From NCBI RefSeq assembly GCF_053078305.1, contig NZ_CP166879.1: DNA of 64,000 nt, one strand, 5' to 3'. Shown one piece after another: positions 12,001-15,000 of this stretch. A program made the position numbers. Position 1 is the first letter of the stretch. Each line of letters starts with the position of its first letter.

Positions 12001-15000
12001 TAAGGTATTAACAAAAATGCTAGTACCCCTAGCATAAATGAACATACATAAACACTCCATCTGGCCCCATTAATCATTTCAATCATTGCTAATAATAAAG
12101 CAAGAGGCAAATAAATTATTGAAATAAATGAAGCACTAATTTTTATGTTTCTATTAATCATCTTTTTATAACTTTTCTCATAAATAGGTAAATATCTGCT
12201 AACGCCGCATATAATTTCCCGTTTCTTTTCTTTCGGATTTGTCTCGCTTCCTCCAATGCTAATTTTACATTTTTAGCGCTAAGGCCGGCATTTCTCATCG
12301 AAGAGATATTTTTATCAATATAATGAAAGATATAACCTTGTTTCTTCAATTTTAGCAAAAGATCATAATCAGAAGCAATTTTATAGCTAGTATTAAATAA
12401 ATTTTCTCTGTGGATATCTTTTTTAATAAATGTGGCCGGATGGCTTAAATTCATATCTATATGTAGTTTCCAGTCTTTAGGCCTCCGGACCTGAATAACA
12501 TCCAAGCTATCAGCCTCTACCAAAGACATATTTCCATAAATAACATCATATTTATTTTCTTTCATTACTTTTATTACTTGACATAATACATCTTTATTAT
12601 AAAAATCATCAGCGTTTATAAATCCTATATAATTCCCAGATGCTTTTAACACACCTTTATTCATTGCATCATATATACCATTATCATTTTCAGAAATGAT
12701 ATATGAAATTTCATTTTTGTAAGAATTAACAATATTTAGAGTATTATCCGTTGATGCACCATCAATTATAATATATTCAATGTCATCATTGCAGTTTTGT
12801 GATAAGACACTTTTTATAGTATCTTCGATATACATTTCGCCATTGTACACAACGGTAACTATTGTTAAAGTTGGTTTATTCATTGTTAGCCCTACAATAA
12901 ATTTAAATTATTTAATTTATTTGTTTTCTTAATCAAAAAGTAAAATCTCGCCATTATTATAAACTCAGTTGAAATAACTCCTATTGCTGTACCAACTCCT
13001 GAGTATTCATTAGTCAAATAAGTAATTATCAGTAGGCCTATTAATCCACTGGTAGTAATAATTTTTGTAAACTCTTTTTTCATACCAATAGGGATCATTA
13101 CTAAAATTGCAATATAATTACTTACCGTAACTATTGCTGGAGTAAAAGCTAAAACCTTGAGTATTTCTAAAGATTCATGATACGTTTTTCCATACATGAT
13201 TAAAATTATATCGTCTGCAAAAAAGTAAAGAAATATGGAAAGTACGAACATCAGTGAAAATTGCCATCGAAACACTTTCCTGGCTAATAATAGTCCATCG
13301 TCATGATTATCCTTCATTATATAAGTTACTCTAGGAAAAACAGCTTGGGTTATAGGACCAATAACGCCTTGTAGTGCAAGCCTAATTTTATCTGCAGCGA
13401 TAAAATATCCCACTGCAGTTGTTCCTGATAATGCACCTAATATTATTGTTGAACTAGTAGTATAAAGGCTTATTGCTGCAGAGGAAATGAAGTAATGCCA
13501 TCCATCATAAATTAACTCTTTCATTTTGGATAAGGATGGTGGTACCCATATTATTTTTTTAAGAGAAAATAAAAAATATGTAGATATTATACCTGCAATA
13601 ACTGTTATTGATGATTGTATTGTTATCGCTATACCAAGATCCTTTTCACTTTTAACCAATAAAAATGTTAAACATAGTGTAAGTAAGCGTGCGGAAAACA
13701 TACTTATCGCTATTCCTAACATTTTTTCCAGCCCTTGAAAAAACCATACTGGATATATTAAATTTCCTACGACAGATATGTATGCAAGAATGATAAATTT
13801 AATTTGGTAATCAATGATATTCAATTCCGAAATTAAATAAATAATTAACAAACCAAGAGATGCAGCAATTATTTTGATAAACGTTACATTCCAAAAAACT
13901 TTACTTATGGAATCAGTATTTTCCCTTGATATTGATATTATTTTGGGCGCTGAGTAGTTAAATCCGTAATCAATAAATAATATAAAATATTGGACCACAG
14001 CAAAACTATACCCATATATCCCGTATCCTGTAGGTTCAAGGATCCTGACAAGATAAGGCAGTGTGACCAATGGAAATATATAATTGCCACCTTGAACGCT
14101 TAATAAATAGATGATGTTTTTTAACATAACGAGCCTACGTACTTAACAAGTCTTATTTTGCACGATAGTTTACAATTTGTTAAGTAATATGGGATAAACA
14201 TTTAATTCACGCTACCGCCCCTGGCTCAACAGCTACCAGCGTACTGCATGCACGTCCTAATTGTAACTAGCATTAACCGTTATGGTTAGTTCGAAAAGCT
14301 TAACTCTGAACGTTTTACCAAATCGCTTCAGAGATGGAGAAAATCTCAGCCTCCCACAATAAATGCCTATTGAAAAGTTATTGTTACTCATATTTAGAAC
14401 GGTATAAAGAAAGAATGAGGCAATGAGTACAATTAGCCCCACCAATCTTCACTGCCGTTATAATTTTCTTATCAACCGTTACATCCGGTCAGATTTTCAA
14501 TATTCGCTTAACAGCTTCTCAATACCTTTACGGAACTTCGCCCCTTCTTTGAGGTTGCGTAGTCCATACTTCACGAACGCTTGCATATAGCCCATTTTTT
14601 TACCGCAGTCGTAGCTGTCACCAGTCATCAGCATTGCATCAACAGATTGTTTTTTCGCCAGCTCAGCGATGGCATCTGTCAGCTGAATACGTCCCCATGC
14701 CCCTGGCTGCGTGCGTTCAAGTTCCGGCCAAATATCGGCAGAAAGCACATAACGACCTACGGCCATGATGTCTGAGTCCAGCGTTTGTGGCTGATCCGGT
14801 TTTTCGATGAATTCAACAATGCGGCTGACTTTGCCTTCACGGTCCAGCGGTTCTTTGGTCTGAATGACGGAGTATTCAGAGAGGTCACCCGGCATACGCT
14901 TTGCCAGCACCTGGCTACGGCCCGTTTCATTGAAGCGCGCAATCATGGCAGCAAGGTTGTAGCGCAGCGGGTCGGCGCTGGCGTCGTCGATCACTACGTC

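What the first reader, a model, noticed from the sequence alone, without database searches (positions are those of the whole stretch)
14190..14245. JUMPStart/ops antitermination element ahead of the O-antigen operon
The minus strand carries GGCGGTAGCGT in a conserved block (GCCAGGGGCGGTAGCGTG) that recurs verbatim upstream of wza. This implies RfaH-dependent read-through of both long polysaccharide operons.
Basis: partly seen in the sequence, partly recalled or inferred. Interest (0 to 1): 0.3.

Follow-up and report, generated by a model that had tools for sequence, protein, structure and literature searches.

The report
JUMPstart/ops RfaH-loading sites, two operons

Summary
Confirmed and ordinary. 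The window is E. coli chromosome: wza–wcaM colanic-acid cluster, gne, galF, an O11-family O-antigen cluster, then gnd, all on the minus strand. The 12-nt ops core GGCGGTAGCGTG occurs exactly twice, both on the minus (coding, non-template) strand. One copy is at 14208–14219, 80 nt before wzx. The other is at 39795–39806, 177 nt before wza. Each ends a 39-nt block that scores 57 bits against Rfam JUMPstart RF01707 (gathering score 35). The shared 18-mer is expected 0.05 times by chance. Across E. coli strains with unrelated O-antigen genes, identity is 100% through the element and collapses at the base after ops G12. The 39-mer is found in 5425 of 5426 complete E. coli genomes, with a median of three copies (O-antigen, wza and waaQ leaders). 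Every base that mutagenesis showed to be needed for RfaH recruitment or pausing is present. Published ChIP-seq shows RfaH on the homologous wzx leader in CFT073, and on the wza leader once H-NS/StpA silencing is removed. A 5-bp hairpin abutting ops is supported by compensatory changes across Gammaproteobacteria; its role is untested. RfaH dependence and the transcript 5' ends cannot be tested from sequence. Novelty: already known.

The parts
14208..14246 (-). 39-nt JUMPstart element in the galF-wzx intergenic leader of the O-antigen operon
   Evidence: Rfam RF01707, 57.0 bits against a gathering score of 35, full model 1-38, no non-canonical pairs. It matches as an isolated 39-bp island in E. 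coli genomes with unrelated flanks (query 255-293).
14208..14219 (-). ops core GGCGGTAGCGTG (RfaH recruitment site; expected pause at T11 = 14209)
   Evidence: Exact match. 100% conserved in 11 panel sequences, and identity drops at the next base. The base requirements come from PMC5995543.
14221..14239 (-). 5-bp hairpin abutting ops: CUGGU (14239-14235), 9-nt loop, GCCAG (14225-14221)
   Evidence: Rfam consensus structure. Covariation test on related loci.
1563..14127 (-). O11-family O-antigen operon served by the element: wzx, GT2, wzy, GT, galE, GT4, gmd, fcl, gmm, manC, GT2, manB. Twelve tightly packed genes, GC 28-42%.
   Evidence: ORFs. RefSeq annotation of a 98% identical record. Wzx Pfam Polysacc_synt, E = 4.7e-57. 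GC profile.
39795..39833 (-). 39-nt JUMPstart element in the wza (colanic acid) leader
   Evidence: Rfam RF01707, 57.3 bits. The leader is 99.6% identical to other E. coli.
39795..39806 (-). ops core GGCGGTAGCGTG of the colanic-acid leader
   Evidence: Exact match.
39808..39826 (-). Hairpin UUGGU (39826-39822), 9-nt loop, GCCAG (39812-39808). The outer pair is U.G instead of C-G.
16789..39617 (-). Colanic-acid operon wza-wzb-wzc-wcaA...wcaM (about 23 kb) downstream of the second element
   Evidence: ORFs. Annotation of homologous records. Wza Pfam domains.
14497..15393 (-). galF, the conserved gene upstream of the O-antigen leader. No terminator-like site lies between it and JUMPstart.

Best explanation
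Each site is a JUMPstart element whose 3' twelve bases are the ops signal. The proposed mechanism runs as follows. RNA polymerase starts upstream and transcribes into the leader, then pauses with the RNA 3' end at ops T11 (window 14209 and 39796). In the paused complex the non-template strand copy of ops folds into a tiny hairpin (C3:G8 pair, T6 flipped out), and RfaH recognises it. RfaH then stays on the polymerase for the whole operon. It suppresses pausing, excludes NusG and so blunts Rho-dependent polarity, counters H-NS-imposed elongation blocks, and recruits the ribosome to leaders with weak Shine-Dalgarno sites. The effect is that the promoter-distal genes of the 12.6-kb AT-rich O-antigen operon and the 23-kb colanic-acid operon get expressed. 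What is shown here: presence, strand, position, family membership, conservation pattern and the hairpin. What is taken from the literature on homologous leaders: RfaH binding and its effects. What is inferred: that the same happens in this strain.
For: Exact ops on the coding strand at both sites, far above chance. Rfam JUMPstart scores of 57.0 and 57.3 bits against a gathering score of 35. Both lie in annotated non-coding leaders, 80 nt before wzx and 177 nt before wza. In a panel of E. coli strains whose first downstream gene is rfbB, wzx, galE, asnB-like or a hypothetical gene, identity is 1.00 from 20 nt upstream of ops through ops G12 except for two loop positions (0.64, 0.73), and falls to 0.45-0.8 immediately after. 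The 39-mer is found in 5425 of 5426 complete E. coli genomes, median 3 places; the third place is the waaQ leader. All bases whose substitution abolishes or reduces RfaH recruitment (C3, G4, G5, T6, A7, G8) or pausing (T11, G12) are wild type (PMC5995543). ChIP-seq in CFT073 shows RfaH loading at the wzx and wza leader ops sites and RfaH-dependent RNAP progression (PMC9765446). The O-antigen operon has 28-42% GC, typical of H-NS-bound RfaH targets. Hairpin-plus-ops also precedes WecB, Wzx, Wzi and Wza genes in Pseudomonas, Marinobacter and Halomonas.
Against: No promoter better than chance was found upstream of the O-antigen element, and the 5' end of the transcript is unknown here. For wza only a weak TGGAGA-16-CATAAT match at 39949-39922 was found. 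rfaH is not in the window, so its presence in this genome is assumed. RfaH occupancy of wza-wcaM was seen only in a hns stpA mutant, so its contribution under natural induction rests on limited data. MFE folding of the local RNA does not single out the Rfam hairpin: z = 0.09 for the O-antigen leader, and the hairpin appears only in the centroid structure.
Confidence: 0.93

Rival explanations
1. The two copies are a chance or selfish dispersed repeat (REP-like or a relic of a mobile element) with no role in transcription.
For: The window does contain REP-type repeats (naRNA4 hits at 20811-20881 and 35792-35836).
Against: The 18-mer is expected 0.05 times. Both copies sit in the same orientation and position relative to a polysaccharide operon. 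The element is invariant across strains while its flanks diverge. It belongs to a curated family and has direct ChIP evidence in homologous loci.
Confidence: 0.01
2. The conserved 39-mer persists mainly as a homology anchor for recombination that swaps O-antigen clusters between strains. Its position at the conserved/variable boundary then reflects crossover points rather than regulation.
For: Conservation ends exactly at ops G12. In strain NCTC9022 the junction lies inside ops (GGCGGTAGCATT). In 3 of 11 panel sequences the element is an island with unrelated sequence on both sides. An IncY plasmid carries a galF-JUMPstart-galE-GT module next to IS903B.
Against: The same element is conserved ahead of wza and waaQ, which are not hypervariable cassettes. 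The hairpin covaries, which recombination homology does not require. RfaH function is experimentally established. This is best seen as a by-product, not an alternative.
Confidence: 0.15
3. The leader RNA itself is the active agent. A short JUMPstart/ops-containing transcript, like RirA from the waaQ leader, binds RfaH in trans and titrates it, so these leaders act as regulators of RfaH availability as well as targets.
For: RirA is a 73-nt RNA that shares its 5' end with waaQ mRNA and contains JUMPstart and ops. [quoted passage not shown] The hairpin with T.G wobbles shows selection on the sense strand.
Against: No terminator-like site follows either element, so nothing here predicts a short transcript. 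No evidence was found for such RNAs from rfb or wza leaders. It is an addition to the cis function, not a replacement.
Confidence: 0.08

Closest known systems
JUMPstart element (Hobbs & Reeves 1994; Rfam RF01707, Weinberg et al. 2010, PMC2864571)
   Same: 39-nt length, sequence, hairpin, ops at the 3' end, and location just upstream of polysaccharide gene clusters. Scores are 57 bits against a gathering score of 35.
   Different: Nothing material. The O-antigen copy differs from the common K-12/O6-type copy at 4 of 39 positions (nt 5-7 and loop nt 19-20), and its upstream flank is a diverged variant shared with only 65 genomes.
ops / RfaH system of E. coli (rfb, rfa/waaQ, hly, kps, tra operons)
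   Same: Identical 12-nt ops on the non-template strand in a 5' leader, ahead of a long AT-rich surface-structure operon.
   Different: The ops-to-start distance is 80 nt (wzx) and 177 nt (wza), against 40-67 nt quoted for wzx, kps and rfa in CFT073. RfaH dependence was not tested here.
Colanic-acid (cps/wca) leader of E. coli K-12 (Stout 1996, as cited in PMC9976346; Navasa et al. 2014, as cited in PMC9765446)
   Same: The same locus at 99.6% identity to other E. coli. The JUMPstart in the wza leader is described in the literature.
   Different: In this window a Mu-like prophage interrupts yegH about 1.1 kb upstream, and cpsG carries a 1-bp frameshift. The leader itself is intact.
RirA sRNA (waaQ 5' UTR)
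   Same: Contains the same JUMPstart and ops sequence.
   Different: No evidence that the rfb or wza leaders yield a discrete short RNA.
Hairpin-stabilised (his-type) pause signals
   Same: A 5-bp stem with an 8-9-nt loop placed about 11 nt upstream of the paused RNA 3' end. The geometry is computed; the his values are from my own knowledge of Chan & Landick and Toulokhonov et al.
   Different: The ops pause is classed as backtrack-type and was characterised without need for a hairpin (PMC5995543). A role for the JUMPstart hairpin in pausing is untested.
RNA-based processive antitermination signals (lambda nut, HK022 put, EAR/epsC)
   Same: A leader element that makes RNAP resistant to downstream termination across a long operon. 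EAR likewise serves polysaccharide operons.
   Different: Those act as RNA. ops is read as single-stranded non-template DNA by a NusG paralog.

Membership tests
JUMPstart (Rfam RF01707) | Covariance-model score at or above the curated gathering score (35 bits) over the full model | tested here: met
   57.0 bits (14208-14246) and 57.3 bits (39795-39833), model positions 1-38 of 38.
JUMPstart (Rfam RF01707) | A roughly 39-nt conserved block ending in GGCGGTAGCGTG, lying just upstream of and on the same strand as a polysaccharide gene cluster | tested here: met
   The downstream genes are Wzx and Wza by Pfam.
JUMPstart (Rfam RF01707) | 5-bp stem-loop immediately 5' of ops, maintained by compensatory change | tested here: met
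   Both window copies form the stem with no non-canonical pair. In loci sharing only GGGGCGGTAGCGTG, a perfect stem at that position occurs in 41 of 58 gammaproteobacterial hits against 10 of 62 others (Fisher p = 1.3e-9). Shifted controls give 1-9 of 58. There are 23 distinct stem sequence pairs.
RfaH-dependent (ops) operon | 12-nt ops consensus GGCGGTAGnnTG on the non-template strand | tested here: met
   Exact matches on the minus strand, which is the coding strand of wzx and wza.
RfaH-dependent (ops) operon | Bases required for RfaH contact (C3-G8) and for the pause (T11, G12) are intact | tested here: met
   Sequence, compared with the mutagenesis results in PMC5995543.
RfaH-dependent (ops) operon | ops lies in an untranslated leader, not inside a coding region (coding-region ops sites do not load RfaH) | tested here: met
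   No annotated gene overlaps either element in homologous RefSeq records. Only mechanical ORFs of at most 62 aa lie nearby. The rule comes from PMC9765446.
RfaH-dependent (ops) operon | ops is transcribed, meaning a promoter or transcription start lies upstream | tested here: inconclusive
   The consensus scan found no upstream promoter above chance for the O-antigen leader, and only a 9/12 match (39949-39922) for wza. No terminator lies between galF and the element. Sigma-70 ChIP peaks upstream of ops are reported for the homologous CFT073 leaders.
RfaH-dependent (ops) operon | The genome encodes RfaH | not testable with these tools
   rfaH maps elsewhere on the E. coli chromosome and is not in the 64-kb window.
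RfaH-dependent (ops) operon | Expression of promoter-distal genes falls when rfaH or ops is mutated | not testable with these tools
   This needs an experiment. It is shown for homologous wzx operons in the literature.

The most novel reading that the evidence does not exclude
The conserved 5' half of JUMPstart may be more than sequence context. It could be a nascent-RNA hairpin (5-bp stem, 8-13-nt loop) positioned so that its 3' base lies 11 nt behind the RNA 3' end when RNAP sits at the ops pause. That would make JUMPstart a composite of an exit-channel hairpin and a consensus pause, which could lengthen the pause or limit backtracking and so widen the window for loading scarce RfaH. The same hairpin-plus-ops architecture extends, with different stems and longer loops, to Pseudomonas, Marinobacter, Nitrincola and Halomonas polysaccharide operons that fall below Rfam's JUMPstart threshold. 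The stem-loop itself was noted by Weinberg et al. 2010. A mechanistic role in pausing or RfaH loading was not found in the papers searched.
Probability: 0.2. Interest if true: 0.4.

Novelty: already known. Interest (0 to 1): 0.1.

Why it matters
The finding is useful as annotation. It marks the 5' boundary of the O-antigen transcription unit and the exact conserved/variable junction at 14208, and it predicts that both surface-polysaccharide operons in this strain belong to the RfaH regulon, a known virulence and fitness determinant. It teaches nothing new about biology, because the element, its location in both leaders and its mechanism are all in the literature. The only open thread is the function of the covarying hairpin next to ops.

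Tried and rejected
1. Sigma-70 consensus scans of both leaders gave nothing above shuffled expectation for the O-antigen leader, so no promoter call was made.
2. A terminator scan across the O-antigen operon gave 9 sites against 8.7 expected, so it was uninformative.
3. MFE folding of 61-nt and 143-nt leader segments gave z-scores of 0.09, -2.31 and -0.51. The Rfam hairpin is too small to stand out thermodynamically, so comparative evidence was used instead.
4. A search for the RcsAB box using a consensus recalled from memory (TAAGAATATTCCTA, up to 3 mismatches) found nothing upstream of wza, and the total count was at chance level. This is a weak test and no conclusion was drawn.
5. Attempts to read Stout 1996, Marolda & Valvano 1998 and Kang 2018 failed because they are not held. 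The mapped transcription starts and the his-pause geometry are therefore not cited from source.
6. The one-mismatch ops-like sites at 37231-37241 (inside wzc, T6A) and 51847-51857 (prophage, opposite strand to the large ORFs there) were considered and rejected as chance. About 0.84 such matches are expected, and coding-region sites do not load RfaH.

Full report
**Observation.** The minus strand carries GGCGGTAGCGT exactly at 14209–14219 and 39796–39806. The full 12-nt ops pattern GGCGGTAGNNTG matches only at these two places, against 0.11 expected by chance. It has no other match within three mismatches, and 0.05 matches are expected. Aligning 180 nt around each site shows that the shared block is TGGTAGCT, a 4–5-nt variable loop segment, and AGCCAGGGGCGGTAGCGTG, with unrelated flanks. 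The observation itself is correct, and both cores are on the coding strand of the downstream genes.

**Context.** The window is E. coli chromosome. Region 12800–15500 is 98% identical to records annotated as galF, O11-family wzx and a GT2 glycosyltransferase. The homologous record shows the order wcaM, gne, galF, wzx, GT2, wzy, GT, galE, GT4, gmd, fcl, gmm, manC, GT2, manB, gnd. Region 38400–40897 is 99.6% identical to wzb, wza and yegH. All these genes are on the minus strand. The O-antigen element ends 80 nt before the wzx ATG at 14127. The colanic-acid element ends 177 nt before the wza ATG at 39617. Pfam confirms Wzx (Polysacc_synt, E = 4.7e-57) and Wza (Poly_export, SLBB, Wza_C). No annotated gene and no ORF above 62 aa covers either element. 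The O-antigen cluster has 28–42% GC, against about 50–55% in its surroundings.

**Family membership.** Rfam's JUMPstart model (RF01707, gathering score 35 bits) matches 14208–14246 at 57.0 bits and 39795–39833 at 57.3 bits. Both are full-length matches, and every pair of the 5-bp stem is canonical.

**Conservation.**
- A 501-nt query across the leader matched most E. coli only in the first ~60 nt after galF.
- In strains with different flanks the match was an isolated block at query 255–293, which is exactly the 39-mer.
- I fetched twelve strains whose first O-antigen gene differs: rfbB, wzx of O6 and O159, galE, a GT4, an asnB-like gene, a hypothetical gene and an ISAs1 insertion.
- Anchored on ops, the ten that carry the exact core plus the window's O-antigen copy (11 sequences) show per-column identity of 1.00 from 20 nt upstream of ops through G12, apart from two loop positions (0.64 and 0.73).
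- Identity falls to 0.45–0.8 at the very next bases.
- The 39-mer is present in 5425 of 5426 complete E. coli genomes, with a median of three places per genome. The third place is the waaQ (rfaQ) leader.

**Mechanism.** This is taken from the literature. ops is a consensus pause, with the RNA 3' end at U11. In the paused complex the non-template strand forms a small hairpin (C3:G8, loop G4–A7, T6 flipped into a pocket of RfaH). Substitutions G4C, G5A, A7T and G8C abolish recruitment. C3G and T6A reduce it about three-fold. T11 and G12 are needed for the pause (PMC5995543). Both window copies carry the wild-type base at every one of these positions.

In CFT073, RfaH ChIP signal begins at the leader ops of wzx, kps, hly and rfa, and RNAP travelling ratios fall to 0.1–0.34 of wild type without RfaH. 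wza–wcaM is also RfaH-bound, but only in a Δhns ΔstpA strain, because initiation there is silenced. ops-like sites inside coding regions do not load RfaH (PMC9765446). The wca operon is described as using a JUMPstart–RfaH mechanism with RcsA/RcsB activation (PMC9976346).

- RfaH dependence in this strain is inferred, and rfaH is outside the window.
- The promoters were not identified by consensus scans.
- For colanic acid the rate-limiting control is initiation.

**The hairpin.** I scanned one genome per species for GGGGCGGTAGCGTG.

| Set tested | Perfect 5-bp stem ending two bases before ops G1 |
|---|---|
| Gammaproteobacterial hits | 41 of 58 |
| Hits elsewhere | 10 of 62 |
| Gammaproteobacterial hits, 3' half shifted by 1–11 nt | 1–9 of 58 |

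The difference between the first two rows gives Fisher p = 1.3e-9. There are 23 different stem sequence pairs, for example CTGGT/GCCAG, CAGGT/GCCTG, CAGGA/TCCTG, CAAGA/TCTTG, CACTG/CGGTG and TGATG/CGTCG. T·G wobbles show that the pairing is selected on the sense strand.

Rfam's threshold is passed by the Enterobacterales, Aeromonas and Idiomarina copies (45–60 bits) but not by the Pseudomonas, Marinobacter, Nitrincola and Halomonas variants. Of six first-downstream ORFs from those variants scanned against Pfam, four belong to polysaccharide families: WecB, a Wzx-type protein, Wzi and Wza. One is a metallo-β-lactamase-type RNase and one has no Pfam match.

In the window the stem's 3' base is nt 26 of the 39-mer and the pause nucleotide is nt 38, leaving 11 nt between them. 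That geometry resembles hairpin-stabilised pauses; the his-pause values are from my own knowledge, not from a source I could read. Weinberg et al. 2010 already noted the stem-loop. I found no paper assigning it a role. RirA, a waaQ-leader RNA containing JUMPstart and ops that interacts with RfaH, is a related precedent.

**Rivals.**
- Chance or a selfish repeat is excluded by the statistics, the orientation and the conservation pattern.
- A role as a recombination anchor for O-antigen cassette exchange fits the sharp boundary at G12 and a junction inside ops in NCTC9022. It does not explain the wza and waaQ copies or the covarying hairpin, so it is a by-product at most.
- A trans-acting leader RNA is possible as an extra function but is unsupported here.

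**Verdict.** The finding is real, correctly interpreted and already known. Interest is low.

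Noticed in passing
window 40898-64000 (junction at 40897/40898): A Mu-like transposable prophage is inserted into yegH (TerC family), about 1.1 kb upstream of the wza JUMPstart. 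It has a repressor-like ORF at 41169-41729 on the minus strand, a Mu-transposase-like ORF at 42148-44235, a MuB-like AAA ATPase at 44307-45239, and Gam. Homology to intact yegH stops at 40897. The prophage is 98% identical to prophages at other sites in O157:H7 strains, and it runs off the window end. The wza leader and promoter region (39618-40274) is intact.
   Followed up: partly
window 23896-25313, minus strand (deletion at about 24995/24996): The colanic-acid phosphomannomutase gene cpsG/manB is frameshifted by a 1-bp deletion (GTGGAT-GCGGC against GTGGATGGCGGC in the reference), just before the TASHNP active-site motif. This gives two overlapping ORFs. It may be a genuine pseudogene or a sequencing error. 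A second manB lies in the O-antigen cluster (1563-2933). RfaH-modified RNAP would be expected to resist the resulting polarity.
   Followed up: partly
window 25270-25319, minus strand: An Rfam algC RNA motif (RF02929, 77.3 bits against a gathering score of 33.8) lies immediately upstream of the colanic-acid cpsG/manB start, inside the wza operon.
   Followed up: no
window 35792-35836 and 20811-20881: REP-type palindromes (naRNA4 RF02564). One scores 79.7 bits between wcaK and wzxC. A weaker one (39.5 bits, below gathering) sits in the wzc-wcaA gap. The latter is a candidate internal attenuator that RfaH-modified polymerase would read through, like the stem-loop after wzc in group 1 capsule clusters (that comparison is from memory).
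   Followed up: no
L005 (strain C3) about 1086-1097; L007 (NCTC9022) about 1086-1097: Natural ops variants occur in the O-antigen leader of other E. coli strains. Strain C3 has AGCGGTAGCGTG (G1 to A) with an ISAs1 element downstream. NCTC9022 has GGCGGTAGCATT, where the serotype-specific sequence begins inside ops and removes the T11-G12 pause dinucleotide.
   Followed up: partly
L015 (plasmid pAL.H8, NZ_CP082350.1) 1830-6039: An IncY plasmid carries a galF-JUMPstart-galE-glycosyltransferase module next to IS903B, so an O-antigen-type cluster with its RfaH-loading leader has been mobilised onto a plasmid. The JUMPstart there scores 60.5 bits.
   Followed up: no
L024, L054, L057, L125, L128-L130 (Pseudomonas, Stutzerimonas, Marinobacterium); L019, L079, L080 (Marinobacter); L090-L092 (Nitrincola); L075, L101 (Halomonas): These loci have exact ops preceded by a hairpin with different stem sequences and 6-13-nt loops. 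Those scanned with Rfam (L024, L125, L129, L130, L079, L090, L091, L075) fall below its JUMPstart threshold. There are several copies per genome, ahead of WecB, Wzx-type, Wzi and Wza genes among others. One copy precedes a beta-CASP/metallo-beta-lactamase RNase (L129).
   Followed up: partly
window 14247-14496: The galF-JUMPstart spacer of this O11-family locus is a diverged variant (roughly 70% identity by eye) of the sequence found in most E. coli. Only 65 of 5426 genomes share it over its full length.
   Followed up: partly
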